This document shows positions 24,275-60,072 of a DNA stretch of 64,000 nt, one piece after another (positions within the stretch are counted from its first letter, which is position 1; every line of letters begins with the position of its first letter). The position numbers and the translations under genes are program-made. The notes beneath the pieces were generated by a model that did no database searches, was not told the origin of the DNA, and saw only the letters and a list, made by a program, of their open reading frames with translations. Source of the stretch: Candidatus Aenigmatarchaeota archaeon (GTDB lineage Archaea > Aenigmatarchaeota > Aenigmatarchaeia > QMZP01); the NCBI GenBank assembly GCA_016185435.1, contig JACPNN010000005.1:22588-86587 (forward strand). The letters are read 5' to 3'.

Positions 24275-24562
24275 GCCCCAGTAGCTCAGCCGGTGGAGCG
24301 TCACCTTGGTATAAACCCTTTTCTTTTTAAGAAAAAGAAAAGCGAATGGGAGACAGAAGCATATCAGCGGATATGCTTCATAACCAAACGTGGAAAAGAA
24401 AAATAAATGCAAAGGAAGAAGAAAATGATGTAAAACAAAAAGGTGAAGGCCGCGAGTTCAAATCTCCACCCTTTCTTTTGTAAAAGAAAGGGTAGGTTAT
24501 CCAAAGAAAACAGTTACAGAGAGTGAATATAAAATATCCGAGTGAACGTCTCGCCTGGGGCT
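24275..24562 (+). tRNA. tRNA-Thr(GGU) with two introns (24312..24440 at 37/38; 24464..24549 in/after the T-loop)
   Basis: Exons reconstruct a cloverleaf: acceptor gccccag/ctggggc, D-stem gctc/gagc, anticodon stem tcacc/ggtga with loop ttGGTa|a, T-arm gcgag-ttcaaat-ctcgc. All four stems pair perfectly only after removing the two inserts. CCA is not encoded. Confidence 0.6.
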
Positions 24563-24642
24563 TTGTTTTTCTCACTAGCAGCCTGAGAATCCATGCGCCA
24601 ATTTAAGCGGGCAAAAGAAATCTTATTGACCGAAGGGCATAT

Positions 24643-25146
24643 ATGATATCCCTCCCCGCAGGCATCCCAGGCAGGACAGGCCATGCCATAATCATCCTTT
24701 CCCTCATACTTCTCGCTGTCCTCTATTCCCTCACATCAGAGATTGTCAACATGGGCAAAGAGCTCCACAAGAACTGCCCGCTTCCTCCGGGCATGTGCAT
24801 TTTCACAAGGAGCATACCGGTAGAATCAGCACTCGGCCTGATTGCCGTCCTATCCCTTCTTTTTCTCGGCCTGAATATCATAATCCAGGCAAGAAGGACA
24901 AAGTCTGTCAGCTTGCAGAGCAGCCGGAAGCTGACCAAGGCGGCAGAGAGCCTTGCAGGCGACGAGAAGCTGGTTTTCGAGGCAATAGCTGCAGATGATG
25001 GCTTTGCCTTCCAGAATGAGCTTGCCACTAAACTCGGGATGTCTAAAGTAAGGATCACAAGAGCCCTTGACAAGCTGGAGGGCAGAGGGCTGATTGAAAG
25101 GAAGAGGAGAGGCATTACGAACGCTGTTATTCTCAAGCACGAATAG
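24643..25146 (+). CDS. membrane-anchored winged-helix transcriptional regulator (MarR/TrmB-like HTH)
   Basis: Two N-terminal hydrophobic helices followed by an HTH-like region (LATKLGMSKVRITRALDKLEGRGLIERKRRG). Confidence 0.55.
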   Translation: MISLPAGIPGRTGHAIIILSLILLAVLYSLTSEIVNMGKELHKNCPLPPGMCIFTRSIPVESALGLIAVLSLLFLGLNIIIQARRTKSVSLQSSRKLTKAAESLAGDEKLVFEAIAADDGFAFQNELATKLGMSKVRITRALDKLEGRGLIERKRRGITNAVILKHE

Positions 25147-25152
25147 GATGGC

Positions 25153-25728
25153 ATGGAAACTTTTTTAAATAAGGGAGGAGAGAAGGCAGGAATCGAAATA
25201 GCAGACAAAAGGCTATTCCTCAGGTATGCAATACCCTGCACGTCCACACTTGTGAAGAGAGGAACCGTTAAGAAGGAGCTTGTCAATGAGCTTCTTGATT
25301 ATGCTTTGAGAAAGAGGGAAATGCAGACAGATATAAGAGAGACCTTTCCTGTGGCTTACCTCGCCTGCAGGAAAATAGCTCAAAACAGAGGAAAAGGGGA
25401 GATAGGGCCAGAGGAGATAAGGGAGTATTTCTGGAACCTGCATGACGATGTCATCGAAAGGAGATTTGAGGAGAAGAGGGACTTCGACAAGGATGACTGC
25501 AGGATATGGGCCGGAAAGGTGCTGAGGCTGTTGGAAGACAACAGAGCAGAGGTGCTGACCCAGAGGAGAGAGAGAATTTTCAGAAATGCATTCGAGCCTC
25601 ACCTAAAGAAGGATGATTATGTTGTCACCCATTACGATTTCATCACAGAGAAGGTTTCAAGGGAAAATGCAAAAGCGATCTGGGAAGACAAAAACAGGCG
25701 GCTTGGGATAGGGACAACATTCCCATAA
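25153..25728 (+). CDS. hypothetical protein
   Basis: ORF of 191 aa, no recognisable motif. Confidence 0.4.
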   Translation: METFLNKGGEKAGIEIADKRLFLRYAIPCTSTLVKRGTVKKELVNELLDYALRKREMQTDIRETFPVAYLACRKIAQNRGKGEIGPEEIREYFWNLHDDVIERRFEEKRDFDKDDCRIWAGKVLRLLEDNRAEVLTQRRERIFRNAFEPHLKKDDYVVTHYDFITEKVSRENAKAIWEDKNRRLGIGTTFP

Positions 25729-25765
25729 ATTTATATCCCTGAACCAATAAGTATGCGGTGGAAGC

Positions 25766-26680
25766 TTGGAAAAAGAGCAGAAAGGCACAATTCTCGCATT
25801 TATTGCCGCCATAATCAGCGGTTTCGCCATATTCGCCAACAAGATATTCATAGTCGACCTAGAGCCGGTTGTTTTTACAGCAGTAAGGGCAATGCTGATA
25901 GGCCTTCTCTTTTTTCTCCTGTCCTTATGGTCCTTCAATTTTGATCTTTCCGGATTCAGGAAAGCCAGATGGAATTATCTGCTTGCAATAGGCATAATCG
26001 GGGGAGGCCTGGCATTCTATTTATTCTTCAGCGGCCTCAAGCTTACGACTGCGGGAAGAGCAGCCTTTTTGCACAAGACCCTGCCGCTCTTCACAACCAT
26101 TATTGCTTATGTCTTCCTGAAGGAAGCGATAACCAAAAAGCAGCTTATTGCCCTGATTCTCATGCTTGCAGGGGCGCTTGCCATATCGTCCACAGCCATC
26201 TCCCCTGACGCATTCTGGACAAATCCGGCTTTTGGCGATCTGCTTGTGATTGCAGCCACAATACTGTGGGGCGTGGAGAATGTGATTGCCAAGAAAGCTC
26301 TTCTTCAGAAAGAATCCCATTTTGTGGTGATGTTCGGAAGGATGTTCTTCGGCGCTGTCTTCCTTTTCGGAGCAATGCTCCTTTTAGGCAAATTTGAGCT
26401 TCTGCTTATGCTAAAGCAGTCACAAATACTAAACCTCATTGCATCAGCAGCAATACTTGCTGGCTATGTCCTGACCTACTACTGGAGCCTGAAACTCATC
26501 AATGTCTCAAAGGCTTCCACAATCCTCCTGTTTGCGCCGCTCATCACGCTTCTCCTGAGCATGGCCTTCATGGGCGAGCAGCCGCCATTGCTCCAGCTCG
26601 CAGGCTCTGCCCTGATCCTTGCAGGCGCTTTCGCGATTGCCAAAGTGAAGAGCGGGATTGAGCAGCCAAAGGCTGTCTGA
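25766..26680 (+). CDS. EamA/DMT-family transporter
   Basis: ~10 predicted TM helices in two internally repeated halves, typical of EamA. Confidence 0.8.
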   Translation: MEKEQKGTILAFIAAIISGFAIFANKIFIVDLEPVVFTAVRAMLIGLLFFLLSLWSFNFDLSGFRKARWNYLLAIGIIGGGLAFYLFFSGLKLTTAGRAAFLHKTLPLFTTIIAYVFLKEAITKKQLIALILMLAGALAISSTAISPDAFWTNPAFGDLLVIAATILWGVENVIAKKALLQKESHFVVMFGRMFFGAVFLFGAMLLLGKFELLLMLKQSQILNLIASAAILAGYVLTYYWSLKLINVSKASTILLFAPLITLLLSMAFMGEQPPLLQLAGSALILAGAFAIAKVKSGIEQPKAV

Positions 26681-26723
26681 CACGGATTCACACTGAATCG
26701 TCTAAAAATAAGGAGGTGACAAA

Positions 26724-27128
26724 ATGGATCTGAAGAAAGGAGTGATCACAGGCGTTGTTGCAGGAATAGTCATGATAGCGCTGGGCTTCGTCTTCATGGC
26801 AGCCACAGGGACAAGCGACTGGTACCAGAAGACATTCCCGATGATGGTTTCCCAGCAGGCGATGCCATTCTTCATACTGTCCATCTTCCTGGCGGGCCTG
26901 TTCATGGGTCTGGTGTATTCGGTAGTAAACCCCTCGATATCAGGTGCCGGCTGGAAGAAGGGAGCGTATTACGGCCTTTTTGTGTGGCTTCTTGCAGGGA
27001 CGATGTGGCCAGTCATGATGATCGGCTTCGCAGGGATCAACATCTGGCTGGTTGAACTGATAGCAGGCCTGATAGAGTACGCGATAACAGGAGCAGTGAT
27101 TGCCATTGTCTACAGCAAGCTGAAGTAG
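26724..27128 (+). CDS. small integral membrane protein
   Basis: Four hydrophobic segments; good RBS-like ggaggtga upstream. Confidence 0.5.
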   Translation: MDLKKGVITGVVAGIVMIALGFVFMAATGTSDWYQKTFPMMVSQQAMPFFILSIFLAGLFMGLVYSVVNPSISGAGWKKGAYYGLFVWLLAGTMWPVMMIGFAGINIWLVELIAGLIEYAITGAVIAIVYSKLK

Positions 27129-27522
27129 CCGACAGAGAATCTTTACTGGAAGATCAAATGCAAAAAGATACTTGCAGTTTTGTATTCACTGCGCCATAAA
27201 GAGACTGCTTCCTACTGAAAATGATGGTCCAAACAATTACAAAACTTCCGGCAGCAGTCGTCAGTCCTTGGCCTTCCTGTGTATCCAATAGCTCTCGATG
27301 CTGTCAGCGTTTACCCAGTGGGTCTCAGTCCCTCCATCTATCCTGATTGTCTTTGCCCTGTCAATGAATTCGATGTTGTGCCTGTGCAGCTCATATACCT
27401 GGTTCGCCGCAGTCCTCACCATAACTTCCCCGAATTCCTCCACGGCCTTCTTCAGGCTCTCGTAATCTATCATAATCAGGGATAATAAGCAGGGTTAATA
27501 AAGACAGCGGCCAGAATCAGAT

Positions 27523-27912
27523 ATGAGACATGTCATCTATGTCTTCGGCAACCCCCTGCTGAAAGAGGACAGCCTGCCACTTAAATTGCTGCCTCGCCTG
27601 AGAAAAGAGTTTCCTGATATTGATTTTGTTGAACTGGACCCTTCTGACAATATACATGAGCTCGGAAAAGAGCTGATCATACTTGATACTGTGCAGGGAA
27701 TAAGGAAAGTGGAAATTATAGAGAATACCGATTCCATAGAGACTGGTAAAGCTTATTCCCTGCATGACTTTGATCTCGGCCAGAACCTGAAATTAATGAA
27801 AAAATTAGAGCTGATAGAGAGGATAAGGATAATCGGGATACCTATGGGGATGAATAAAAATGAAGCCATAGAGCAAGTAAGAATCATACTGCAAAATCTT
27901 TTTTCAAAATAA
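27523..27912 (+). CDS. putative hydrogenase maturation protease (HycI/HybD-like)
   Basis: N-terminal IYVFGNPLLKEDSLP resembles the GNxLxxDDG motif of [NiFe]-hydrogenase C-terminal peptidases. A hydrogenase large subunit with a C-terminal extension after DPCMSCASH is 3 kb away. Confidence 0.5.
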   Translation: MRHVIYVFGNPLLKEDSLPLKLLPRLRKEFPDIDFVELDPSDNIHELGKELIILDTVQGIRKVEIIENTDSIETGKAYSLHDFDLGQNLKLMKKLELIERIRIIGIPMGMNKNEAIEQVRIILQNLFSK

Positions 27913-27917
27913 TCCTA

Positions 27918-28358
27918 TCAAAATTCCAGCTTATTCACCCACTCGGGTATTTTCCCATCCTCAACCCTGTCATACTGCGGCCAGTATGGCTTGATATCGA
28001 TCACCGGCGTACCGTCCAGAATGTCAAGGCCTTTCACCTTTATCCTGTTGCCCTTATGCCCCATCAATCTGACTGTTGTGATTCCTATCGGGTTCGGCCT
28101 CTGGGGGCACCTGCACGCAAAGATCCCTACAACCGGCACATGGGGGTTGCCCTGCGGCTGATGCTTTATCACATGGCCCTTTACTTTATCCATCCAGTAT
28201 ATTATTATCACATGGGAATAGTCATCAATCCCGTCCAGGGCCCCAGTGAATTTCTCGTCCACAACAATTTCCGAAACCTCATCTGCGAAGCCGCCAAATC
28301 TCGGTTCTTTGATGTTGTTTTTGACGAAGCCTATTGGCCTTAAAGTTATGTCTGCCAT
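27918..28358 (-). CDS. TsaA/TrmO-family tRNA methyltransferase (UPF0066/YaeB)
   Basis: RPIGFVKN...PRFGGFADE...IKPY, characteristic of TrmO/TsaA beta-barrel SAM-dependent methyltransferases. Confidence 0.7.
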   Translation of the reverse strand: MADITLRPIGFVKNNIKEPRFGGFADEVSEIVVDEKFTGALDGIDDYSHVIIIYWMDKVKGHVIKHQPQGNPHVPVVGIFACRCPQRPNPIGITTVRLMGHKGNRIKVKGLDILDGTPVIDIKPYWPQYDRVEDGKIPEWVNKLEF

Positions 28359-28674
28359 GATAATTAGAAGTAAATAAAATCAGACAATTTAAAGGCAGTT
28401 GCAGGAGTTCTCAGCCTATTTGTCCTTCATTGCCTTTGCCATCAGGGTGCATGGATTGTAACTTTATAGTCGGCTATCTGCACGGCATAAAAGTATTGGC
28501 AGAATCGGAAAACTCCATAATGCACACCTTCGTTGACTGAATATTTATCATGGTTTTCCTTCTGCGTGTCTCCTACCTCAAGAATTCCAATGATCCAGCT
28601 TTTTGTGCTGAAATTTTCCGTGTGTTTCAACTCCTATGCAAGCACCCGATGTTTTGTATAAAAAATTCTTGGTC

Positions 28675-30027
28675 CTAAAACAGCCCCCAACTGAAATATG
28701 CCATCCCAGCCATAATAAGTGCTCCAGCAATCGAAATCAATATCCCGGCCTTTATCATTTCCTTCACATGGATATATCCTGTGGAATAGGCCAAAGCAGA
28801 AGGCGGCGTGCCCATGGGGAAGATGAAGTCAAGGCTTACCCCTATGGCCGCTGCAACCACGAGGTTTGTCATGTCAACGCCGAGCATGCCTGACAGGGCT
28901 GTTACTATGGGTATCAGGACTGCTGATGCTGCAGTATTGCTGATGAAGCTTGTCAGGGCTATGCCGACAACTCCCATGGCCAGCAGCACAAAGAAATAAT
29001 GCTGGCCTGCCAGCGAGGAGCCGAGGGAAGAGGAGACAATGTCGTCCAGCCCTGATTTGTCTATGGCCATTCCCAGGGCAATCCCCCCTCCAATAAGTAT
29101 CAGGGAGTCCCACCCCACCTTGTGGAAATCATGTGTATCGATGAGCCTGAACAGGTAAAGCAGGATTATGGGAACCAATGCTATAATGCTGTTATGTATC
29201 CCATGAACACTTTCTGTAACCCAGAGAAAGACTGTCAGGACAAATATTGCGGCTACCTTCTTCTGCTCCAGAGTGAACGGGTGGGGATGCTTTTTTGTGG
29301 CCAGCTTCCTGATTTCAGGCCTGAAAACATGATGGAGTACGAGCCAGCATGCAATGACCATCAGGACCATGAACGGAAAGCCTCTCACGCCCCATTCGAC
29401 AAAGCCGAATGTTATCCCTTTTTCGGCCAGGAATTTCTGGGTGATGACATTCGGCGTGCTGCCTATCAGCGTGCCTATCCCGCCTATGGTCGCCCCATAG
29501 CCGACAGCAAGCACCATTGATTTGGCAAAGTTGGAATGCATCTTCTTTATCCTGTTTTTCCTCAGAAGAATTACGGCTATGGGCATCATGATTGCCGCAG
29601 CAGCGGAATTGCTCATCCACATTGAAAGGAAGGCAGTGACAGCCACTGTTCCCAGCAGAACGGACTTGGCCGAGCTTCCAAACCTGCCCAGCACCTTGTA
29701 ACCCAGATACTCATCAAGCTTATGCCTGCTCATTGCCACTGCTATGGCGAACCCTCCCAGGACAAGGACAACCACCCTGTCAAAGAACTGGGAAAAAACA
29801 GCATCTGCCTGGAATCCCCCGGCAATCACAAGAAGAAAGGCCACAAGCAGAGCAGTAGCCTCAAGGGGCATGGCCTCTGATATCCACAAAGTCATGGCAA
29901 GAAGCGTTATCGCAAGAGTAGCTCTAGCCTGCGGCTGGAGATCAATCGGGAGCACATAAACAAGCGAGAACAGCATAAGTGCAAGAAATATTTTTCCGTA
30001 GAACCATTTTCTGTTCACTTCTATCAC
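28675..30027 (-). CDS. DASS/SLC13-family anion (sulfate/carboxylate) symporter
   Basis: ~450 aa polytopic membrane protein with duplicated halves and the SNxAA-like hairpin motif (SNSAAAAIMMP / SNTAASAVLIP). Confidence 0.7.
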   Translation of the reverse strand: MIEVNRKWFYGKIFLALMLFSLVYVLPIDLQPQARATLAITLLAMTLWISEAMPLEATALLVAFLLVIAGGFQADAVFSQFFDRVVVLVLGGFAIAVAMSRHKLDEYLGYKVLGRFGSSAKSVLLGTVAVTAFLSMWMSNSAAAAIMMPIAVILLRKNRIKKMHSNFAKSMVLAVGYGATIGGIGTLIGSTPNVITQKFLAEKGITFGFVEWGVRGFPFMVLMVIACWLVLHHVFRPEIRKLATKKHPHPFTLEQKKVAAIFVLTVFLWVTESVHGIHNSIIALVPIILLYLFRLIDTHDFHKVGWDSLILIGGGIALGMAIDKSGLDDIVSSSLGSSLAGQHYFFVLLAMGVVGIALTSFISNTAASAVLIPIVTALSGMLGVDMTNLVVAAAIGVSLDFIFPMGTPPSALAYSTGYIHVKEMIKAGILISIAGALIMAGMAYFSWGLF

Positions 30028-30950
30028 TCTTCTTTATAATCTATATATACGCTCCTTCCCTTTACAAACTTCACAGCGGCCAGAGCTGCATTGCATCCCT
30101 CCCCTGCAGATTTCAGGGCCTGGGGATTTCCTCCCGTGCAATCACCGGCTGCAAAGATACCATCAACATTCGTCTTGCCGTCCCTGTCCACAACCACATT
30201 GCCTGCTGTGTCCATCCCTATACCGAGCCTGTTTGAAAAAGCAGAGGCTGAGGCCACACCTACAGCGATGAAAACGCCGTCAAGCTGGGCTTTTGAACCG
30301 TCTGCCATCAGAAGATTCCTGAAGAACCTGTCGCCTTCGAAAGCTGAAATTTTTCCTTCAGTGAAACCGATATTGTTTTCCTTCAGTTTTTTCAAAAGAT
30401 TTTCTGATATCTCAACTGTTTCATCATTCGAAAATATCGTAATATTTTTTGTATAGGACAGAAGCTCCAGAGCTTCTTCAGCCGCATAGTTCCCGTTACC
30501 AATGACAGCAACTTTTTTGCTTTTATAGAAATAGCCGTCGCAGATGACGCAGTAATGGACACCCTTCCCTACGAATGTCTCCTCATTCTGCAGGCCTATC
30601 CTCTTGTACGATTTCCCGCAGGCTATGACGATGGCCTTTGCTTCATACTCGTTTTCGTCAGAGGTTTTGACCCTGAAGCCTTTCTCCTGCCTATCTACGC
30701 TTACCACCTCCTTTTCAAGAACCGCGGCCTTATATCGCTCCGCCTGTCTTCTGGAAGCCTGCTGGAACTCTTCCCCCCCTATGCCCTCAGGGAAGCCGAG
30801 GTAGTTGAACACTCTCTTGGCCTTGGCCATATTGCTTTTGCTCGGGAATCCTAGAACAAGGGTTTTCATATTTGCCCTGGCAGCATACATGCCTGCCGCC
30901 AAGCCCGCAGGTCCGGCGCCTATGATGAGCACATCAAATCCCTCAGCCAT
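30024..30950 (-). CDS. thioredoxin reductase-like FAD/NAD(P)-binding disulfide oxidoreductase
   Basis: FAD-binding motif GAGPAGLAAG, second Rossmann motif IGNGNYAAEEA, redox CxxC (CVIC), C-terminal GDCTGG. Confidence 0.75.
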   Translation of the reverse strand: MAEGFDVLIIGAGPAGLAAGMYAARANMKTLVLGFPSKSNMAKAKRVFNYLGFPEGIGGEEFQQASRRQAERYKAAVLEKEVVSVDRQEKGFRVKTSDENEYEAKAIVIACGKSYKRIGLQNEETFVGKGVHYCVICDGYFYKSKKVAVIGNGNYAAEEALELLSYTKNITIFSNDETVEISENLLKKLKENNIGFTEGKISAFEGDRFFRNLLMADGSKAQLDGVFIAVGVASASAFSNRLGIGMDTAGNVVVDRDGKTNVDGIFAAGDCTGGNPQALKSAGEGCNAALAAVKFVKGRSVYIDYKEE

Positions 30951-32235: not shown

Positions 32236-32303
32236 TCTATCCTCTTCTCCGAATATATTATTGCTTATCTTTTCAAAGTTTATGCAAAATCTTATTAATC
32301 ATT

Positions 32304-33214: not shown

Positions 33215-33331
33215 ATTTATTATTGCCCATTCTCCTTATATCCGCCCTCCCCAAGTGAGATGGACGCCTCCTGCAAATTCCAATCCTCTGCAGGAAGCAT
33301 CCATCACGGGTTAACATACAACGCAATATTA

Positions 33332-39038: not shown

Positions 39039-39091
39039 AAATACATATCATGTTCAGTGTATTAAAAGCCAAACAAATATTGTCTGCTTCC

Positions 39092-39384
39092 TTTCCCCTG
39101 GAACCTCTCAAAAACAGTCGACAAAACCTTTTATTGGTTTTATAAGCCCAAAAGGTTTTATCCAAAAGATGTTTTTTGGGTCGAGCCTTTTGACGCTTAC
39201 GGTTCAAAAAGGGTCGCAAAAAGTTTTATCCAAAAACTGAACCCTTCTACCGTCCTAATCCCTTCTGAAATCTCTGGAATACAGTCGACAAGTCAATCCT
39301 GTACTTGCCTTCGGCAAGCCTTATGACAAGCGGTTTCTGGGCGAACAGCTTGGTGACATCTATATTGTACTTGCCCGGTTTAAG
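39092..39384. repeat. long direct repeat copy 1 (~231 bp shared with 40858..41088, plus a 68-bp internal insert 39168..39235). Includes an orphan 3' gene fragment (C-terminal 46 codons of the Zn-ribbon gene, minus strand 39247..39384)
   Basis: Near-identical alignment with 40858..41088. Copy 1 lacks the rest of the gene. Confidence 0.85.
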
Positions 39385-40773: not shown

Positions 40774-40857
40774 GATTTATTGTTGTTTGGCCAAGCATAA
40801 AAGTATATAAGAACCAAAAGAATCAGCTTTATTTAGCATAACAGTCTCTGAACCTTA

Positions 40858-41088
40858 TTTCCCCTTCCTCCGGAACCTCTCAAACACAGTCGACAAAACC
40901 TTTTATTGGTTTTATAAGCCCAAAAGGTTTTATCCAAAAACTGAGCCCTTCTACCGTCCTAATCCCTTCTGAAATCTCTGGAATACAGTCGACAGATCAA
41001 TCCTGTACTTGCCTTCGGCAAGCCTTATGACAAGCGGTTTCTGGGCGAACAGCTTGGTGACATCTATATTGTACTTGCCCGGTTTAAG
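40858..41088. repeat. long direct repeat copy 2 (overlaps the 3' end of the Zn-ribbon gene)
   Basis: See 39092..39384. Confidence 0.85.
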
Positions 41089-44685: not shown

Positions 44686-44900
44686 GGGGTCATGAGGTTA
44701 ATGGCAACCTGGCGGGCTCCAGGCCAGCCTTTCTTTCTCGAAAGAAAGGCTAGGTTACCCAAAGAAAGGAAATACAGATGTTATGCTCGGGAGCATTGAG
44801 CCGACGAGGGAGCTGCCATATGCGGCGAGCATGATGACAGATACCCAAGGCTGTGAAAGGAAGACACCCGTACATGGGAGTTCGAATCTCCCTGACCCCA
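44686..44900 (+). tRNA. tRNA-Trp(CCA) with a 143-nt intron at 37/38 (44723..44865)
   Basis: Acceptor ggggtca/tgacccc, D-stem aggt/acct, anticodon stem gcggg/cccgt with loop ctCCAg|a, T-arm gggag-ttcgaat-ctccc. The intron contains the palindrome cctttctttctcgaaagaaagg and an ATGATGA (box C-like) motif. Confidence 0.65.
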
Positions 44901-45048
44901 TTGCGCACCCCTTTCTTTTAGAAAAAGAAAGGGTACCGCCCTATCCAAAGAAAACCAATTACCTCCACTGAACTTGACATTTCCTGCTCGATATCGGTAA
45001 TTCCTTTTTCTGGATAACCTACCCTCTTTTTTGGAAAAAGAGGGTGGT

Positions 45049-45082
45049 GTACATGGGAGTTCGAATCTCCCTGACCCCATTC
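45049..45082 (+). pseudogene. orphan duplicate of the tRNA-Trp 3' half (34 nt identical to 44870..44903), preceded by an intron-type palindrome
   Basis: gtacatgggagttcgaatctccctgaccccatt repeated. A third partial copy (tctccccattgcgca) lies at 45146..45158. Confidence 0.7.
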
Positions 45083-45573
45083 CCAGAAGGGAGGTATCCC
45101 TTCTATGGTTTACTTCCCTCTGAATACTAATATCAATCTTGATCTCCCCATTGCGCATTCCCTACGCAGAGGGAAGGTATTCCCTCTACCGTCCTACTCC
45201 CTTCAGATTACAAGTATCGCCACCTGTAATCCCTTTCTTTGCCGAACGGGCTTTCTTTTGGAAAGAAAGCCTGTAAAGGTCTACCGCTCTACCCCCAAAA
45301 GAAAAGGCAATACTAATCAGAGAGGTGTAGTATAGGCTTTTCTTCCAGAGAAAAGCCAATTGGAGACAGAAGCATATCAGTGGATATGCTTCATAACCAA
45401 ACGGGCAAAAGAAGGATATACCAATGATAAGCATATCCTTCAGTTGCTGGGGGCTGATAACACTTGGCCAGCCTGTGACAGTGAAGTAAAGACTTCAAAA
45501 AAGTTGGCTGACCAAGTGAAGGGCCCGCAGAGGCCCTTATTGGGATACCTCCCCTCTAGGGAAAGAAAGGCAG

Positions 45574-51932: not shown

Positions 51933-51935
51933 CAA

Positions 51936-52628: not shown

Positions 52629-52660
52629 GACTTAAATACACTTGCCAGCCAAATCAGAAA

Positions 52661-53056: not shown

Positions 53057-53155
53057 AGCGGCAGCTGGACTCCGGGGGTGATTTTTATAGAACACGGCCA
53101 TATACAGAAGAATGGAAGCATACAGACAGAGATAGTCGAGGGGCTGACGTTCTGA

Positions 53156-54051: not shown

Positions 54052-54093
54052 GGCTGCAGGATCCCGGCAGAACTCCAATATTAATGATCTGGC

Positions 54094-55188
54094 ATGAAGC
54101 CCTCAATCGACCCCTGGGGAAAAGGAGAGGTGAAGGATTACGGCAGGCTCATGGAGGAATTCGGTTTGAGGCCATTCGATGATTTCATAAAAAAACTCCC
54201 GGATCCTCCTTTGCTCATAAGAAGAGGCGCTGTGTATGCGCATAGAGACTTTGAAAGGATACATTCTGCAATAAAATCAAAAAAGCCCTTTGCCATGATG
54301 ACAGGCCTCATGCCTTCAGGCAAGTTCCATCTGGGCCACATGATGGTCGCCCAGCAGATTGTCTATTATCAGAGTCTTGGGGCCCATGTTTTCGTTTGTG
54401 TTGCCGATGTGGAGGCCTATAATGTCAGGAGGATGCCTTTTGATGAATTGAGAAGAACAGCAATTGAAGAATACCTGATCAATTACATAGCATTGGGATT
54501 AAGGCCGAAGAGCTGCACATTCTATTTCCAGTCGGCTCATACCGTTCCTTATTACAGACTAATTTCCATGCTTCCAAGAAGGACAACGCAGAATGAATTC
54601 GAGGCCATATACGGCACTTTCGATCCCCAGAAGCTGATTTCTGTTTTCTACCAGATAGCGGACATCCTCCATCCCCAGCTTCCCGATTATCTCGGGCCTC
54701 TCCCCCTTGTCGTGCCTGTAGGGGTGGACCAGGACCCTCACATAAGATACACAAGGGACATCGCCTCGAGGATAAACGAATTCAGATTCATTCCGCCTTC
54801 ATCAACCTACCACAAATTCGCCAAAGGCCTTCAGGGAGGCAAGATGAGCTCCTCAGATCCCACAAGCTATATCGCTCTGACAGACACGCCTGAAGAGGCC
54901 AGAAAGAAAATCATGAAGCACGCATTTTCAGGAGGCAGGGACACAGTGGAAGAGCACAGGAAGCTTGGGGCCAATCTGTCTGTCGATGTGAGTTATGAAT
55001 ATTTGTATTATTTGTTCGAAGAGGATGACAGGAAAATGAAAAAAATAACAGAGGATTACGGCTCCGGGAAGATGCTTACCGGAGAGGTGAAGAAGTTTCT
55101 TTCAGAAAAGCTGGAGAAGTTCCTGATCAGGCATAGAGAAAAGAGAGAGAAAGCTATTGATTTGGTACCTAAGTTCTTGGAGAAATAA
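54094..55188 (+). CDS. trpS: tryptophanyl-tRNA synthetase (archaeal type)
   Basis: Class I motifs HLGH (FHLGHMMVAQQ) and KMSSS. Size and N-terminus are consistent with archaeal/eukaryal-type TrpRS; TyrRS is not fully excluded. Confidence 0.75.
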   Translation: MKPSIDPWGKGEVKDYGRLMEEFGLRPFDDFIKKLPDPPLLIRRGAVYAHRDFERIHSAIKSKKPFAMMTGLMPSGKFHLGHMMVAQQIVYYQSLGAHVFVCVADVEAYNVRRMPFDELRRTAIEEYLINYIALGLRPKSCTFYFQSAHTVPYYRLISMLPRRTTQNEFEAIYGTFDPQKLISVFYQIADILHPQLPDYLGPLPLVVPVGVDQDPHIRYTRDIASRINEFRFIPPSSTYHKFAKGLQGGKMSSSDPTSYIALTDTPEEARKKIMKHAFSGGRDTVEEHRKLGANLSVDVSYEYLYYLFEEDDRKMKKITEDYGSGKMLTGEVKKFLSEKLEKFLIRHREKREKAIDLVPKFLEK

Positions 55189-55263
55189 TTCAATTTCTGC
55201 AATCCCTTTATTCGAATAGACTCGCCTTTTTTTCTGAAAAAATCGATGCACCTTGCACGGTAG

Positions 55264-55421
55264 CAGGCCCGACGGGATTTTCGTCTTGGGTATTTTCCAG
55301 ATAGATGTTTGTATTTCCTTTTTCTGGATACCCTACCCTCTTTTTTGGAAAAAGAGGGTGGTGTCGAACCCGTATCCCCTGCTCCGGAGGCAGGTGTTCT
55401 ATCCGACTGAACTACGGGCCT
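55264..55421 (-). tRNA. tRNA-Arg(CCG) with an 86-nt T-loop intron (55279..55364)
   Basis: On the minus strand: acceptor aggcccg/cgggcct, D gttc/gaac, anticodon stem cctgc/gcagg with loop ctCCGga, T-stem acggg/cccgt, and T-loop ttcga|at restored only after excising the insert. The insert begins caccaccctctttttccaaaaaagagggtagggtatccagaaaaagg. Confidence 0.5.
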
Positions 55422-55473
55422 AATATACCTTTCTCTGCTTCTTATATCCCTTTGCGGCCTAAATTATACTATT

Positions 55474-55762
55474 GCGGGGGTTCCCGAGAGGCCAAAGGGG
55501 CGGGACTTAAGAAAACCTTTTCTTTTCCAAAAAGAAAAGGTTTTATCCAAAAGAAAACAAATGAAAAACAAGCGCTTGCGGAAAAGAAAACAACATACAG
55601 AAATCTTAAGTATTGAGCGAAAGCTGTGAAATAAGAGATCCCGTGACTTAGTGTCTTCGCAGGTTCGATAGGCTTTCTTTTCAGAAAAGAAAGCCCATAC
55701 GGCAAAGAAAACATAATACAAAAACTGAAACAATAACCAGAACGAAAATCCTGCCTCCCGCA
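55474..55762 (+). tRNA. tRNA-Leu(UAA) with two introns (55512..55637 at 37/38; 55669..55747 in the T-loop)
   Basis: Acceptor gcggggg/ctcccgc (one G-U), D ccc/ggg with long D-loop, anticodon stem cggga/tcccg with loop ctTAAg|a, long variable arm (tgacttagtgtcttc), T-arm gcagg-ttcga|at-cctgc. Confidence 0.6.
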
Positions 55763-55784
55763 CTGACCCAATATGCAACAGGCT

Positions 55785-57983
55785 TTAGGCGGCACCCTTC
55801 TTTCCGAATTTCCCCTGGAGAAACTCCACAAGGGTGGTGTGGCCCCTCAGGCCGAAGTGGTAGAAAGTGATGTCGTTCTTCCTGCAGTGTCTTTTGAGCT
55901 GGTAGTAGATGGGATGATACACTGATGCGACCACACATACAACGGCATCCTCCTGGCCGATGCCGGAGATATCCTTTCTTCTATTGAACTCGTCAAACAC
56001 CTCCACTGGCGTGTCAACGGCATGCTTTATCTTCTCCGACACATCATGTCCGTACTGGCCTCCCCAGACGATTATCCTTTTGTAGGAGGGCCTTTCTTCT
56101 CCGGCAGACAGTCCGGCTTCACGGATTACTTCTCCAGCAGGGGCAGGAGGATAAATATCTACATGCAGAAGGCTGCCGATTTCCCTATATATATTTCTGC
56201 TTTGTGATCTGGCAATTTCATGCAGTTTGCCGCGAAAAGCATCATCATTGAGCCTGGATTTGTAGGCCAAGAACAGAGAATAGTCGCTGAGGATGAGCTC
56301 ATAAGCCTTTGTGCCGCCAAGCCCAACCGCGTCCCTGCAGAAATCTTCCAAGGATTCCCTCCGGTTTACCCATATGTCCCTCAGCCTTCTGGAACTGGAG
56401 GGGCCGAGGGAATTGTAGGTTTCCCTTACAAGACCGACAACTTCAGGCCCTGCGCCTGACTTCTCCAGCTCCTGCATCATGGCTTCATGCCAGCCTGCAC
56501 GCTTTTTCTTAGACTTCATTTGCGTCTGTTCAGCCTTGGCCGGAGATCTTTCAGCCCTGAGCAGATTCTCTACCAGCTGGTCCGCAGAAAGAGAATCAGA
56601 CACCCAGGAGAGCCCTCCGTCGTCCAGCTGCCTCAGCTTCTGCCTCAGTTTTTTGAGCTCTTCAGCGGATGGCATATATTCCCCTATCATCAGCAGGGCC
56701 AAGGTCTTGTTGCTTTCAGAGGCAGCCGCTGAAGCCAGATAGTCGCTGATAATAAGATCCGCCAGATGGTAATGCTTCGCGATGTCCAGAAGCCTCCCGG
56801 CATTCGGGTCGACAAGGATGTCAGGCCCGTTCCTTAGAATACAGGCGGCTGCCTCCGCCTGTCCGGAGACTGATGCGATTTCCTGCACCAGATCAAGAAG
56901 ACTCCCATCCCTCAGGCCCCATCCGATATCGGCTGTTGTCAGCAGGAACTCATTGTATTCCTTCGCCGAAACCTGGACCCTGCGGAGCCCTTTGTAAACG
57001 CTGGCGGCAGCCGGCCTGCGTGCGAGATAGTCAAGGATCTCCATCTTCTGATCTGCACCGGCTCCGGAAATCAGATGCCATATGGTGTGCGCGTCCGCGT
57101 TATGAGCCTTCAGCCTGCCTGTTCTGTCCGCGACAAAGGAAACGATCTCAGGTCCTTTCATCTCAGCTTTCCTGAAGCAGTCGAGGATTGCCAGTTCCTC
57201 ACTCCCCCCGAGAGCGATATATGCATCCTTTGCCTTCCCCACCCTTTCATGGGCAATTTTCGCGTCCTCGATGTTGCTGACAAAAGCAGACAGCGGAATC
57301 ATGTGAGCTACGCGTTTCCGTTGACCGGCAGTTAACAGACCCTTGATGTCACTGACAATGGCATTCTCCGGAGTCATGTACCCAGTACCGGCTATAGGAT
57401 CGCTTGTCTCTTTCCTGAATTCCCATATGAAATCGGCGACATACCTCTGAGCCGCCCCCTCCCCTCCCTTCTCAAAAACCTCCCTGAAATGTCCTGCTGC
57501 ATCATGCAGGTAGCCAAGGCTTTCTGTTTCATACAAATCCATTGTGTGGTTCACCAGCATTGTGTAGTTCATGAGCCAGCTAAAACCAGGAGTGTCGATG
57601 AAAGATGTGTCGGCAGCCTCAGGCCCAAGCGCAGACCTCAATGCCTTTTTCAGACTCTGAAAATCCGCAGAGGTTTCCGCCACTTTCTGCGCCACAGGAT
57701 TTGCCCTCATCCTGTCCAGCCAGCCCTCGTATTCTGTCACAGCCCTGTCCAGGTCATCAAGCGCTTCACCATACTTCCTGCTGACTTTGAAAGCTTCTTC
57801 CAATGCTCCAAGAAGTTTGAACATCGGCTCAGCACGCACCAGGTCACCGTATGATTTGGCCTCCCATTCGGCTATGCCGTATAGGTGCTGGAGCGCCTTG
57901 ATCGCAACGCTCTTGTTTCTCTTCTTTTTTTCCTCAAATTCCTTCAGCCAGCTTCTTCCTTTCCAGAAGGACTTGCCTGCCAT
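55785..57983 (-). CDS. large hypothetical protein (732 aa)
   Basis: Long ORF, comparatively GC-rich. No family recognised. Confidence 0.5.
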   Translation of the reverse strand: MAGKSFWKGRSWLKEFEEKKKRNKSVAIKALQHLYGIAEWEAKSYGDLVRAEPMFKLLGALEEAFKVSRKYGEALDDLDRAVTEYEGWLDRMRANPVAQKVAETSADFQSLKKALRSALGPEAADTSFIDTPGFSWLMNYTMLVNHTMDLYETESLGYLHDAAGHFREVFEKGGEGAAQRYVADFIWEFRKETSDPIAGTGYMTPENAIVSDIKGLLTAGQRKRVAHMIPLSAFVSNIEDAKIAHERVGKAKDAYIALGGSEELAILDCFRKAEMKGPEIVSFVADRTGRLKAHNADAHTIWHLISGAGADQKMEILDYLARRPAAASVYKGLRRVQVSAKEYNEFLLTTADIGWGLRDGSLLDLVQEIASVSGQAEAAACILRNGPDILVDPNAGRLLDIAKHYHLADLIISDYLASAAASESNKTLALLMIGEYMPSAEELKKLRQKLRQLDDGGLSWVSDSLSADQLVENLLRAERSPAKAEQTQMKSKKKRAGWHEAMMQELEKSGAGPEVVGLVRETYNSLGPSSSRRLRDIWVNRRESLEDFCRDAVGLGGTKAYELILSDYSLFLAYKSRLNDDAFRGKLHEIARSQSRNIYREIGSLLHVDIYPPAPAGEVIREAGLSAGEERPSYKRIIVWGGQYGHDVSEKIKHAVDTPVEVFDEFNRRKDISGIGQEDAVVCVVASVYHPIYYQLKRHCRKNDITFYHFGLRGHTTLVEFLQGKFGKKGAA

Positions 57984-58100
57984 GCTTAGAATTGTGTGCT
58001 AATTTTTTTAAGGCTTCACCAATGCGCTTATCCCAAAACTGCATGCAGAAAGCACAAAAAACAAGCCTTTCCGTTTATTTCCCGCCGTGTCTAAAACAGC

Positions 58101-59456
58101 TCACCTGTACCCTTTTTTCTTCCCCACATACTCCTTCCTCGAGCCCGCATACCCCACATCGCCTGTCCCGTAGAGGCTGAGGCCTTCTCCCATGCTGCTG
58201 CCTTTGGACGCATATCTGTCCTCCTTTTCTGATGCGGCCTCCTGCTGCCATGTGACCTTGAATGTATCCTTCACCTCATAGGGATTATCTATATGGAAAG
58301 GGGCTGGAGTGGAAATGCTCGTATGGAATTTCCAGAGGACATTCCCGTCCATCGAGAGGGCATACAGGTTGCCGTCCCAGCCGCCGAAGATTATCTTTTC
58401 TCCCGCGACAGTCGGCGTGCCCACAACCAGCGATCTGGTGTTGAACTTCCATTCCAGATGGCCTGTCTTTGCCTTCACAGCATACAGATTGTTGTCAGCA
58501 GAACCGAAAAATAAAAGTCCGCTGCCAATATCGGACCCTATCCCAACCCACTCGTTTGTCGTGAAGGTCCAAAGGCGGCTGCCTTCCAGGGAAACAGCAT
58601 GCATCACCCCGTCCCTTCCGCCAAGGTATACGGCATCTTTTGTGACAAGCTGGCCATTGTCCTGCGGAGAATTAGTCGGATACTTCCATATCAGCTGCCC
58701 ATTTCCGGCATCCACCGCATAGAGGTTCTTGTCGAAGGAGGAGAAGTAGACAACACCGTCCTGATACGAGACCCACATGATTATTTCCCCCTTTGTAGGG
58801 AAGGTCCATAAGAGCCCTCCATTCTCATCCACAGCATATAAGTTGTAGTCGTAGCTGCCGAAATATATCACTCCGTTGCCGTATGCGGGCCCTGAAGACA
58901 CAGGCCCCTTTGTCCTGAAGGCCCACTGCTTTTCACCATCAGAATTGACAGCGTAAAGGTTCTTGTCCTGCGAGCCGAAACAGATCATATCATCCACAAC
59001 CAGAGGCTTGCTGAATATCTTTCCTGTGGTCCCGAATTTCCAGAGCAGATTCCCCTCAAGGTCAAGGGCATAGAGGATGTTGTCATAGGAGCCAAAATAC
59101 ACCGCTCCTCCCGCAACTGTTGCATTCCCGCATATTGGCCCCTTTGTAGCAAACCTCCACAGTTCCTGCCCTTTCTCTGTCAGGCAGTAGAAGTTCTTGT
59201 CGCATGCGCCAAAGTATATCCTCCCATTGCTCCACTGCGGCTTGGATTCAATGCTCCCACCTTCTCCTATCTCCCAGTTCAAGGTCTTGCCTGAAGTGAC
59301 TGCCTGCAGCACCATATCGACAAGCTGGAAGCTGCCGAAGCCGCTGACATCGGCCGACAGCGAGGGCCCTGATGTGCCGGTCCCATATGTCTGGTAGCGC
59401 ATATATATGATTGTTTTTGCTTCTTTAAAATATCGCATCTGTCTGCTACTATCCAC
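58101..59456 (-). CDS. PQQ-like beta-propeller repeat protein (BamB/YVTN-like)
   Basis: Repeated NLYA(V/L)...G...LW(K/T)F motifs (PQQ-enzyme-repeat-like). Confidence 0.75.
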   Translation of the reverse strand: MDSSRQMRYFKEAKTIIYMRYQTYGTGTSGPSLSADVSGFGSFQLVDMVLQAVTSGKTLNWEIGEGGSIESKPQWSNGRIYFGACDKNFYCLTEKGQELWRFATKGPICGNATVAGGAVYFGSYDNILYALDLEGNLLWKFGTTGKIFSKPLVVDDMICFGSQDKNLYAVNSDGEKQWAFRTKGPVSSGPAYGNGVIYFGSYDYNLYAVDENGGLLWTFPTKGEIIMWVSYQDGVVYFSSFDKNLYAVDAGNGQLIWKYPTNSPQDNGQLVTKDAVYLGGRDGVMHAVSLEGSRLWTFTTNEWVGIGSDIGSGLLFFGSADNNLYAVKAKTGHLEWKFNTRSLVVGTPTVAGEKIIFGGWDGNLYALSMDGNVLWKFHTSISTPAPFHIDNPYEVKDTFKVTWQQEAASEKEDRYASKGSSMGEGLSLYGTGDVGYAGSRKEYVGKKKGYR

Positions 59457-59495
59457 TTAAGCCTTTAAAAGCCAGCACATATTAATCTTATCCAT

Positions 59496-59512
59496 GGCCT
59501 CGTTGGTGTAAT
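59496..59512 (+). pseudogene. orphan duplicate of the first 17 nt of tRNA-His, fused to an intron-type palindrome module
   Basis: ggcctcgttggtgtaat is identical to 59617..59633, followed directly by ccgccctctttttccaaaaaagagggcaggttgcccagaaaaagg. Confidence 0.6.
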
Positions 59513-59616
59513 CCGCCCTCTTTTTCCAAAAAAGAGGGCAGGTTGCCCAGAAAAAGGAATTACATGTACTAAACATGCAATTTCAACTAATACGAGACCT
59601 GAACAATAAGGCATAT

Positions 59617-60072
59617 GGCCTCGTTGGTGTAATGGAAGCACAGAAGCCTGTGGGCCACCCTCTTTTTCCAAAAAAGAGGGTAGGATATCCAGAAAAAGGC
59701 AATGCAGATGTCGTAAGTAATAACAAATTACGGCATGGCTGCTGGGGGTTAATAAGGGCTGCTCATCATGAGTGATGGCATGCCTTCGCAAGAGCGAAGC
59801 GCACCGCTGGAGGCCCCTTTCGTATAAGCTCAGCAGGAAGCAAGGGGTACTATGGGGATGCGCAGCCTTTGGCTGGCATGCCTTCGCTTCAGCGAAGTGC
59901 ACAGCATGTCCCCATGCAGAAAGCTTCTAGCCTGGGTTCAAATATAGGCTTTTCTTTTGAAAAGAAAAGCCCATTCGGCAAAAGAAACATAATACATCTG
60001 TTGAATGGGTCGATAGCCCATTCGGCAAAGAAAACAGATACCGGATGTATATTGAAAATCCCAGACGAGGCC
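59617..60072 (+). tRNA. tRNA-His(GUG) with two introns (59654..59921 at 37/38, ~268 nt; 59944..60059 in/after the T-loop)
   Basis: G-1 paired to C73 (His identity element). Acceptor gcctcgt/acgaggc, D gtgt/gcac, anticodon stem gaagc/gcttc with loop ctGTGg|a, T-arm ctggg-ttcaa|at-cccag. All stems are perfect only after removing both inserts. Confidence 0.55.

What the first reader, a model, noticed from the sequence alone, without database searches (positions are those of the whole stretch)
24275..60072. Five tRNA genes with very large introns; four (Thr, Arg, Leu, His) carry a non-canonical T-loop intron
Cloverleaf stems for Thr(GGU) 24275-24562, Trp(CCA) 44686-44900, Arg(CCG) 55264-55421 (minus), Leu(UAA) 55474-55762 and His(GUG) 59617-60072 are perfect only if inserts of 79-268 nt are excised. 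The inserts sit at 37/38 and, in four genes, inside the T-loop (ttcga|...|at restores TTCGAAT). T-loop (58/59-60/61) introns are rare, and two introns per tRNA with a 456-nt tRNA-His locus is extreme. This implies a relaxed-specificity splicing endonuclease in this organism.
Basis: seen in the sequence. Interest (0 to 1): 0.8.

Follow-up and report, generated by a model that had tools for sequence, protein, structure and literature searches.

The report
Intron-split tRNA genes carrying triplex-type repeats
Five real archaeal tRNA genes are each interrupted by one or two large but conventionally shaped splicing-endonuclease introns, and the introns are large because each carries a copy of a previously undescribed repeat whose three segments follow the sequence rule of an intramolecular triple helix.

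Summary
Removing eight inserts (79-268 nt) gives five sequences that ARAGORN calls as tRNA-Thr, Trp, Arg, Leu and His; unspliced, ARAGORN and Rfam find none.

The introns sit at 37/38 (Thr, Trp, Leu, His) and at 59/60 in the T-loop (Thr, Arg, Leu, His). All eight have the exon helix, a 3-nt bulge and the 4-bp central helix of a bulge-helix-bulge motif. The central helix is perfect in 6 of 8 (P about 1e-8).

Multiple and T-loop introns are already known in Thermoproteales, ARMAN-2 and Asgard archaea, so the kind is not new. The nearest relatives here are DPANN-type MAGs.

The new part is a ~55-nt module at the start of every intron: a pyrimidine arm, a purine arm, then a second purine tract that exactly mirrors the purine arm (22 of 22 copies, 7 sequence states). 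That layout is a class II intrastrand triplex motif.

Its hairpin starts at intron nucleotide 2 in 6 of 8 introns, where the h' helix belongs. In this window or in related MAGs, copies also follow tRNA 3' ends and protein genes, occur as inverted pairs, and lie beside duplicated tRNA fragments.

Splicing, triplex formation and mobility are inferred, not shown.

The parts
24275..24562 (+). tRNA-Thr(GGU). Exons 24275-24311, 24441-24462, 24549-24562. Intron 1 (37/38) 24312-24440; intron 2 (59/60) 24463-24548. TATA-like TTAATAAATT at 24242-24251.
   Evidence: Modules at about 24315-24405 (long-linker type) and 24464-24526.
44686..44900 (+). tRNA-Trp(CCA). Exons 44686-44722, 44866-44900. Intron (37/38) 44723-44865, starting with a module at 44723-44782.
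44901..45079 (+). Composite repeat directly 3' of tRNA-Trp: module(+) 44907-44971 and module(-) 44988-45050 as an inverted pair. It is followed by an exact 31-nt copy of tRNA-Trp positions 42-72 (45049-45079).
   Evidence: The composite is 79% identical over 145 nt to the T-loop intron of a tRNA-Gln in locus L009.
45217..45415 (.). Two further modules outside any tRNA: 45217-45276 (minus strand; the palindromic hairpin may also serve a plus-strand copy) and about 45333-45415 (plus strand, 92% identical to the Thr intron-1 module).
   Evidence: (family D7).
55264..55421 (-). tRNA-Arg(CCG). Exons 55363-55421, 55264-55277. Intron (59/60) 55278-55362, with a module at 55303-55363.
   Evidence: Rfam tRNA hit on exon 1 just below threshold (27.8 bits).
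55190..55242 (-). Degenerate module in the 3' trailer of tRNA-Arg.
   Evidence: nhmmer E = 6.6e-4.
55441..55449 (.). CTTATATCC/GGATATAAG TATA-like box between the divergent tRNA-Arg and tRNA-Leu genes. It lies 24-29 nt from both 5' ends.
   Evidence: Read from the sequence; inference.
55474..55762 (+). tRNA-Leu(UAA). Exons 55474-55511, 55638-55669, 55749-55762. Intron 1 (37/38) 55512-55637; intron 2 (59/60) 55670-55748. Modules at 55512-55558 and 55666-55728.
59494..59616 (+). Copy of the first 17 nt of tRNA-His plus 2 leader nt (59494-59512), then a module (59512-59572) and a spacer. The only good TATA box (CTTTAAAAG, 59463-59471) lies upstream of this copy, so it is probably part of the His primary transcript as a long 5' leader.
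   Evidence: No BHB could be drawn for a D-loop intron (by hand).
59617..60072 (+). tRNA-His(GUG) with encoded G-1. Exons 59617-59653, 59922-59942, 60059-60072. Intron 1 (37/38) 59654-59921; intron 2 (59/60) 59943-60058. Modules at 59654-59714 and 59944-60004, and a half-module at 60012-60036.

Best explanation
These are five functional tRNA genes of a DPANN-type archaeon. Each is transcribed as one precursor from a TATA box about 25-35 nt upstream. The archaeal splicing endonuclease and an RtcB-type ligase then remove introns at 37/38 and at 59/60.

At each 3' junction the exon stem (anticodon stem or T-stem), a 3-nt bulge and a 4-bp helix form the standard half of a bulge-helix-bulge motif. 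The 4-bp helix pairs exon positions 32-35 or 54-57 with the intron. The symmetric 5' bulge is followed, usually from intron nucleotide 2, by a strong local hairpin that takes the place of helix h'.

That hairpin belongs to a ~55-nt lineage-specific repeat: pyrimidine arm, short loop, purine arm, a fold-back linker clamped by 2-3 G-C pairs, a second purine tract that mirrors the purine arm, then (A/C)AWTAC. This is the architecture of a class II (purine-motif) intrastrand triplex element, the kind described as BoxC/PIT/TM repeats in bacteria.

The repeat has multiplied in this lineage. It explains the intron sizes and the breaks in short-read assemblies. It probably acts and spreads at the DNA level, where such elements are linked to local rearrangement, including the duplicated tRNA fragments beside it.

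Shown: the exons, the junction geometry, the module and its mirror rule, and its distribution. Inferred: splicing itself, triplex formation, and mobility.
For: - Spliced sequences are called as tRNAs; unspliced ones are not.
- Junction geometry: exon helix 5/5 pairs in 8 of 8 introns; central helix 4/4 in 6 of 8 and 3/4 in 2 of 8, against a 2.6% background, P about 9e-9.
- RNAfold minimum-energy structures of the Leu and His T-arm precursors reproduce stem, 4-bp helix, 3-nt bulge and hairpin.
- The hairpin starts at intron nucleotide 2 in 6 of 8 introns (read).
- Orthologous tRNA-Leu(UAA) genes next to TrpRS homologues (70-71% identical protein) keep 90-96% identical exons and a 59/60 intron, but with different intron contents. 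This argues for selection on the exons and turnover of the introns.
- Module copies: 11 strong nhmmer hits plus weaker copies lie in and next to the five tRNA loci, and none of the canonical form lies elsewhere in the 64 kb. A search pattern gives 6 matches against 0 expected.
- Mirror rule: the second purine tract equals the reversed purine arm at 100% over 7-10 nt in 22 of 22 informative copies, across 7 sequence states. A direct-repeat reading fits only 5.
- The Y-R-R' order is the published definition of a class II intrastrand triplex. Such repeats are tied to genomic instability (PMC4666352).
- Repeat behaviour: an inverted-pair composite is shared with L009 at a different site and in the opposite orientation. 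Copies follow protein-gene stop codons in L005 and lie between convergent genes in L016. All short-read contigs of the same population end inside modules or at the tRNA-Trp 3' end just before the flanking repeat.
Against: - There are no RNA data, so splicing and a single precursor are unproven.
- The module's pyrimidine arm contains T4-T5 runs similar to the T-rich trailers of these same genes. From general knowledge, archaeal RNA polymerase terminates at oligo-T, so the modules could terminate transcription inside the introns.
- Helix h' is a local hairpin, so the 5' site lies in a multi-branch loop rather than a strict bulge. Thr intron 1 and the Trp intron have only 3 of 4 central pairs.
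- Purine-motif triplexes are reported not to form in RNA (cited in PMC4666352). The mirror tract therefore has no explained role in the RNA.
- No transposase, integrase or reverse transcriptase lies in the window. The direct repeats beside modules vary in length (17-31 nt), unlike a classical target-site duplication.
- The module is rare: 5 loci in 3 MAGs among 185,579 species genomes, and 4 metagenome loci.
Confidence: 0.75

Rival explanations
1. The module is a functional RNA or processing signal, not a selfish DNA repeat. It would mark the 3' boundary of RNA segments (exon ends, tRNA ends, mRNA ends). It could serve as a binding platform for the endonuclease or another lineage-specific factor, or as a structure that protects excised introns and trailers from exonucleases.
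For: - Sense orientation relative to the upstream tRNA or gene in about 17 of 20 copies (my count).
- Precise placement at intron nucleotide 2.
- 98% identity over 57 nt between Thr intron 2 here and a tRNA trailer in a different MAG (L008), while orthologous introns otherwise diverge completely.
Against: - The mirror tract has no known RNA pairing logic in the sense strand. Purine-motif RNA triplexes are reported not to form (PMC4666352).
- No Rfam family matches.
- Inverted copies and half-modules exist.
Confidence: 0.15
2. The exons are transcribed separately, as in split tRNA genes. The T-rich module terminates each piece and the pieces are joined in trans.
For: The pyrimidine arms carry T4-T5 runs like the genuine trailers of the Thr and His genes. 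Modules also sit where terminators are expected, after tRNA and protein genes.
Against: - Exons lie in order on one strand within 158-456 nt.
- By eye, no TATA-like box lies 25-35 nt upstream of any internal exon, whereas every first exon has one.
- No long complementary leader and trailer, as in Nanoarchaeum split tRNAs, is present. Only the 4-bp helix plus the tRNA stems would hold the pieces together.
Confidence: 0.06
3. The loci are decaying pseudogenes disrupted by repeat insertions. The functional tRNAs lie elsewhere.
For: Repeats, duplicated tRNA fragments and nested modules around the loci look like damage.
Against: - All exons are intact and fold into standard cloverleaves.
- Every insertion sits exactly where a BHB can form, with a matching 4-bp helix.
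- Promoter-like boxes are present.
- Relatives keep the same exons and the same 59/60 position for tRNA-Leu.
Confidence: 0.03
4. The inserts are self-splicing (group I or II) introns or remnants of large integrated elements.
For: tRNA genes are classical integration targets. Partial tRNA duplicates flank some modules. A similar tRNA fragment plus mobile element was described in Caldiarchaeum (PMC3293823).
Against: - No group I or II or any other Rfam match.
- The inserts are 79-268 nt with no ORF.
- No integrase lies nearby.
- The elements beside L006 and L008 are only about 190 bp and are flanked by repeats specific to each host tRNA.
Confidence: 0.01

Closest known systems
Archaeal BHB introns at non-canonical positions: Thermoproteales; ARMAN-2 (Micrarchaeota) with epsilon2 EndA; Atabeya-/Freyarchaeia
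   Same: Introns at 37/38 and 59/60, two per gene, a BHB or relaxed hBH/BHL junction, and similar intron sequences at different positions and in different tRNAs (PMC3239211, PMC4090602, PMC4033280, PMC11291895).
   Different: - The introns here are much longer (79-268 nt). ARMAN-2 examples are 13-25 nt, and Atabeyarchaeia tRNA genes total about 230 nt or less.
- Every intron begins with the same structured module, which supplies h' as a local hairpin.
- The module also occurs outside introns.
Intrastrand triplex repeats of bacteria (BoxC / PIT / TM elements; Holder et al. 2015, PMC4666352)
   Same: Dispersed intergenic repeats made of three consecutive homopyrimidine or homopurine blocks in the class II order (Y, R, reverse-Hoogsteen R'). 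Sequence is conserved across genomes, and the repeats are associated with local rearrangement.
   Different: - A/T-rich rather than G/C-rich, and in an archaeon.
- The second loop is longer (8-10 nt, with a G-C clamp), and there is a conserved 3' extension (AWTAC).
- Sits inside tRNA introns, aligned with splice sites.
- Triplex formation is untested here.
REP/BIME/REPIN and MITE-type miniature repeats
   Same: Short palindromic multi-copy elements downstream of genes. They occur singly or as inverted pairs, and assemblies break at them.
   Different: - There is no fixed-length target duplication.
- No partner transposase was identified.
- The mirror third segment is not a feature of REPs or MITEs.
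tRNA gene disruption by mobile elements in Caldiarchaeum subterraneum (Sugahara et al. 2012, PMC3293823)
   Same: A displaced tRNA fragment lies next to an intron-containing tRNA gene, separated from it by repeated DNA. That paper proposes a link between insertion events and intron gain.
   Different: In that case the insert is a 1.8-kb element with a recombinase. Here the inserts are 100-150 bp with no gene.
ENE + A-rich tract triple helices (MALAT1, PAN RNA)
   Same: Read on the antisense strand, the module is U-rich tract, small stem, U-rich tract, loop, A-rich tract. That is the same topology as an RNA U.A-U triple helix, and in trailers it abuts a tRNA-shaped sequence. This comparison rests on my own knowledge, not on a tool result.
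   Different: The resemblance holds only on the strand opposite the tRNA. There is no evidence that this strand is transcribed.

Membership tests
Archaeal EndA-dependent (BHB) tRNA intron | Removing the insert restores a canonical cloverleaf tRNA. | tested here: met
   ARAGORN calls all five spliced sequences and none unspliced.
Archaeal EndA-dependent (BHB) tRNA intron | The 3' splice site lies in a 3-nt bulge between an exon helix and a 4-bp central helix. | tested here: met
   Exon helix 5/5 in 8 of 8 introns. Central helix 4/4 in 6 of 8 and 3/4 in 2 of 8. P about 9e-9. Seen in the MFE folds.
Archaeal EndA-dependent (BHB) tRNA intron | Strict hBHBh': the second outer helix h' is formed by pairing of the intron's 5' and 3' ends. 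| tested here: not met
   h' is a local hairpin of the module. Between 20 and 230 nt separate it from the central helix strand. The motif is therefore of the relaxed hBH/BHL kind.
Archaeal EndA-dependent (BHB) tRNA intron | Cleavage by the splicing endonuclease and ligation, with spliced tRNA and circular intron detectable. | not testable with these tools
   There are no RNA data. No EndA or RtcB gene lies in the window.
Class II intrastrand triplex motif (BoxC/PIT/TM type) | Three consecutive blocks on one strand in the order pyrimidine, purine, reverse-Hoogsteen purine. | tested here: met
   The definition is in PMC4666352.
Class II intrastrand triplex motif (BoxC/PIT/TM type) | The third block mirrors the purine block, giving A.A-T and G.G-C triads. 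| tested here: met
   22 of 22 informative copies are 100% mirror-identical over 7-10 nt, across 7 sequence states.
Class II intrastrand triplex motif (BoxC/PIT/TM type) | The triplex actually forms (CD, NMR, footprinting). | not testable with these tools
   No tool available here models base triples.
MITE / REP-like mobile repeat | Dispersed multi-copy element, including inverted-pair forms. | tested here: met
   At least 13 copies in the window. Copies in 3 MAGs and 4 metagenome loci. A homologous composite lies at different sites in two genomes.
MITE / REP-like mobile repeat | Fixed-length target-site duplication and a cognate transposase. | tested here: not met
   The flanking direct repeats are about 16-17, 19 and 31 nt. 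No transposase lies in the window.
Split / trans-spliced tRNA genes | Separately transcribed pieces with their own promoters and long complementary leader and trailer. | tested here: not met
   Exons are contiguous on one strand. No internal TATA-like box at the right distance was seen by eye. No long complementarity.
Group I / group II self-splicing introns | Match to the ribozyme core. | tested here: not met
   No Rfam match at gathering score or at E <= 5.
Box C/D sRNA in the tRNA-Trp intron | C and D boxes, with a guide complementary to the anticodon region. | tested here: not met
   One ATGATGA, no CTGA, and no exon complement of 9 nt or more. Only an 18-bit snoRNA-like Rfam hit.

The most novel reading that the evidence does not exclude
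The module is a selected triplex-forming cassette that defines RNA or gene boundaries in this DPANN lineage. It would be a structure-based signal placed exactly after exon ends, tRNA ends and mRNA ends. It could act as a DNA triplex on the non-template strand, affecting polymerase pausing, termination or recombination. Alternatively it could act as a U.A-U RNA triple helix on the opposite strand. Its spread would be a mechanism by which new BHB introns are created at hairpin loops of tRNA genes.
Probability: 0.25. Interest if true: 0.75.

Novelty: new variant of a known kind. Interest (0 to 1): 0.55.

Why it matters
- **Annotation.** Standard tools found none of the five tRNA genes. tRNA complements, and completeness estimates that rely on them, are probably underestimated for this and similar DPANN genomes. 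The literature already suspected this (PMC5829648).
- **Intron origin.** The loci tie intron size and perhaps intron gain to a specific, recognisable repeat. The same element appears in three states in related genomes: as an intron, as a 3' flank with a duplicated tRNA end, and as an inverted pair. The long-standing question of how archaeal tRNA introns move may therefore be testable here by comparative and population genomics.
- **Nucleic acid structure.** The three-way covariation (pyrimidine arm, purine arm, mirror tract) is unusually clean sequence evidence for a selected intramolecular triplex in an archaeon.

Tried and rejected
- **Box C/D sRNA in the Trp intron.** One C-box-like heptamer, no D box and no guide complementarity. 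Rejected.
- **Known RNA family for the module or introns.** None at permissive thresholds.
- **Watson-Crick pairing of the second purine tract with the pyrimidine arm, or a direct-repeat reading.** The register would have to shift between sequence types, and only 5 of 25 copies fit. The mirror reading fits all informative copies.
- **The upstream tRNA-His fragment as exon 1 of a D-loop intron.** No BHB can be drawn. It is more likely a long leader removed by RNase P.
- **The ~190-bp elements after the tRNAs in L006 and L008 as T-loop introns.** The 4 nt before the bulge do not pair with the T-loop (by hand).
- **Strain polymorphism for module presence or absence.** All contigs carrying identical neighbouring proteins stop inside the modules or at the tRNA-Trp 3' end just before the flanking repeat. 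Uninformative.
- **Shared proteins between the window and the Altiarchaeota-labelled loci.** No tblastn hits. The taxon rests on TrpRS neighbours (91% to MAG ERP125453_co1_278; 70% to a MAG labelled Aenigmarchaeota) and on sharing of the module.
- **Module in viruses or in the literature.** No viral contig. No relevant paper contains the sequence; the single partial-string hit was an unrelated microRNA paper.
- **Internal promoters before exons 2 and 3.** None convincing by eye.

Full report

ARAGORN and Rfam (gathering thresholds) detect no tRNA in the 64-kb window. Reading the five regions shows complete acceptor, D, anticodon and T arms once the inserts are removed.

I spliced the exons in silico, and ARAGORN then called tRNA-Thr(GGU), Trp(CCA), Arg(CCG), Leu(UAA) and His(GUG). 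There are eight introns of 129, 86, 143, 85, 126, 79, 268 and 116 nt. That is 1,032 nt of intron for about 375 nt of exon.

A scan for intact or split T-arms found no other credible tRNA. Every tRNA gene in the window is therefore interrupted.

**2. What kind of introns are they?**

I applied the geometry of the archaeal bulge-helix-bulge motif. On each strand the order is outer helix, 4-bp central helix, then a 3-nt bulge cut after its second nucleotide. The tRNA stem fixes the position of the 3' bulge, which in turn fixes both splice sites.

- In all eight introns the exon stem is intact (5/5 pairs).
- In six, the 4 intron nucleotides before the bulge pair perfectly with exon positions 32-35 or 54-57. 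In the other two, 3 of 4 pair.
- Only 2.6% of 4-mers in these introns would pair by chance, so six or more hits in eight has P about 9e-9.
- RNAfold reproduces the stem, central helix, bulge and hairpin for the Leu and His T-arm precursors.

The T-loop introns are all at 59/60. This position is documented, and was cleaved in vitro for ARMAN-2 pre-tRNA-Cys (PMC3239211).

The 5' bulge is followed by a helix. In 6 of 8 introns the helix starts at intron nucleotide 2, but it is a local hairpin rather than a pairing of the intron's two ends. The motif is therefore of the relaxed hBH/BHL kind.

**3. Whose genes are these?**

The window is ordinary archaeal chromosome. It encodes FtsZ, mevalonate-pathway kinases, CysRS, TrpRS, an Lhr helicase, pilus or archaellum membrane proteins, KaiC and a NiFe hydrogenase subunit. 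It contains no endonuclease, ligase, integrase, transposase or reverse transcriptase gene.

The TrpRS is 91% identical to one in MAG 'uncultured archaeon ERP125453_co1_278', with conserved gene order. It is about 70% identical to MAGs labelled Aenigmarchaeota and to other DPANN archaea. The module search also hit two MAGs labelled Altiarchaeales/Altiarchaeota.

I treat the organism as a DPANN-type archaeon and leave the phylum open. The literature reports marked tRNA gene disruption in DPANN lineages whose endonuclease carries an extra loop, and suspects undetected disrupted tRNAs there (PMC5829648).

Next to TrpRS homologues, orthologous tRNA-Leu(UAA) genes in L017 and in L018/L019 keep 90-96% identical exons and a 59/60 intron. 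They have three introns with quite different contents. This argues for live genes with fast intron turnover, not pseudogenes.

**4.

Every intron begins with the same ~55-nt module. Its parts, in order, are:

- a pyrimidine arm, for example CCACCCTCTTTTT;
- a 2-5-nt loop;
- the complementary purine arm;
- a short fold-back linker closed by 2-3 G-C pairs (GG-TTAT-CC in one subtype, GCC-CATTC-GGC in another);
- a second purine tract;
- (A/C)AWTAC.

A profile search finds 11 strong copies and several weaker ones. All lie in or beside the five tRNA loci. A degenerate pattern gives 6 matches where shuffles give none.

The second purine tract is the mirror image of the purine arm. It is 100% identical over 7-10 nt in all 22 informative copies from the window and related loci, across seven sequence states. 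The single G sits after 1, 3 or 4 A's, and tract lengths run from 7 to 10 nt. A direct-repeat reading fits only when the tract is itself symmetric.

Changing from one state to another requires coordinated changes in all three segments. Mirror symmetry of a purine tract beside its own Watson-Crick hairpin is the sequence rule of an intramolecular purine-motif triple helix.

The order pyrimidine, purine, reverse-Hoogsteen purine is the published definition of a class II intrastrand triplex motif. Bacterial repeats of that class (BoxC/PIT/TM) are conserved, dispersed and associated with genomic instability (PMC4666352).

The same paper notes that purine-motif triplexes are not formed by RNA, whereas pyrimidine-motif ones are. 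On the opposite strand the module reads as a class IV (U.A-U type) motif. The strand and the molecule (DNA or RNA) in which the constraint acts remain open.

**5. The module outside introns**

In the window:
- A module sits 6 nt after the 3' end of tRNA-Trp. It is paired with an inverted copy and followed by an exact 31-nt duplicate of tRNA-Trp positions 42-72.
- A module follows a 19-nt duplicate of the 5' end of tRNA-His. This duplicate lies just downstream of the only good TATA box, so it is probably a long leader.
- A degenerate copy lies in the tRNA-Arg trailer.

Elsewhere:
- Modules follow intact tRNA genes within 3-7 nt (L006, L008, L010-L013). In L006 and L008 they belong to ~190-bp inserts that end beside a second copy of the last ~16-17 nt of the host tRNA, starting in the T-loop.
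- They start T-loop introns in L007 and L009.
- They lie 20-80 nt after protein-gene stop codons in L005, and between convergent genes in L016.
- The inverted-pair composite beside tRNA-Trp is 79% identical over 145 nt to the T-loop intron of a tRNA-Gln in L009, in the opposite orientation.
- The Thr intron-2 module is 98% identical over 57 nt to the trailer module of L008.

All short-read contigs from the same population stop inside modules or at the tRNA-Trp 3' end just before the flanking repeat, as expected for a high-copy repeat.

The module is nevertheless rare globally. It occurs in 5 loci in 3 MAGs among 185,579 species genomes, in 4 metagenome loci and in no viral contig. It matches no Rfam family. 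Of four sequence strings searched, one partial string matched an unrelated microRNA paper, and no relevant paper holds the module sequence.

**6. Most likely mechanism**

Each locus is probably transcribed as one precursor and spliced by the endonuclease and ligase at the BHB-defined sites. The module's hairpin would serve as h'.

The module itself is best described as a lineage-specific intrastrand-triplex repeat that has multiplied in tRNA introns and in gene 3' flanks. It accounts for the intron lengths and probably for the neighbouring tRNA-fragment duplications. Caldiarchaeum offers a larger-scale precedent for tRNA fragments beside mobile DNA (PMC3293823).

The weak points are these:
- There are no RNA data.
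- The module's T4-T5 runs might terminate archaeal transcription inside the introns.
- The mirror tract has no explained role in RNA.
- No mobility enzyme has been identified.

Rival readings are scored separately: the module as an RNA signal, separately transcribed pieces, pseudogenes, and self-splicing or integrated elements.

**7. Novelty**

Multi-intron tRNA genes with 59/60 introns are a known kind. The intron sizes are unusual. The triplex-type module placed at the splice sites appears undescribed. I rate the whole as a new variant of a known kind, of moderate interest.

Noticed in passing
window 39085-39384 and 40857-41088: Two copies of a repeat, with a 168-nt stretch 98% identical. 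It contains a related hairpin variant (AAAACCTTTT...AAAAGGTTTTATCCAAAA). The same variant starts the T-loop intron of tRNA-Leu in L018, and part of it matches Leu intron 1 here.
   Followed up: partly
window 39243-39268, 40947-40972, 45182-45207; L017 about 6340-6365: A second short repeat, CCYTCTACCGTCCTAMTCCCTTCWGA, preceded by a complementary GGGAAGG. It also occurs inside the 59/60 intron of the orthologous tRNA-Leu in L017, so it may be a second intron-associated repeat family.
   Followed up: partly
window 9711-9740 and 10549-10578: A perfect 30-nt direct repeat. The first copy is the last 30 nt of the Lhr-type helicase ORF, and the copies lie 838 nt apart with two small ORFs between them. 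It looks like an insertion with att-like or target duplication.
   Followed up: no
window 78-1124 (minus strand): A free-standing 348-aa ORF with a weak LAGLIDADG-like domain (E = 7e-6), next to CysRS. Homing endonucleases of this type are typical of archaeal BHB introns in rRNA.
   Followed up: no
window 55441-55449: One palindromic TATA-like box (CTTATATCC) lies 24-29 nt from the 5' ends of both tRNA-Arg and tRNA-Leu, which are divergent and 53 bp apart. It may be a shared bidirectional promoter.
   Followed up: no
window 59776-59807 and 59874-59905 (inside His intron 1): Two copies of a GC-rich hairpin (GGCATGCCTTCGC....GCGAAG.GCAC, 84% identical) inside the 268-nt intron. They have no match elsewhere and no Rfam hit.
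   Followed up: partly
window 55568-55592 and 60012-60036: Half-modules (linker plus purine tract, without the hairpin) inside Leu intron 1 and His intron 2. A similar solo piece lies at L005 4933-4965. These suggest partial duplication or decay of modules.
   Followed up: no
L007 about 3119-3202: The related MAG encodes a tRNA-Leu with anticodon AAG (A34), as reported for ARMAN-4/5 (PMC3239211). It is followed by a module and a degenerate copy of its own 3' end.
   Followed up: no
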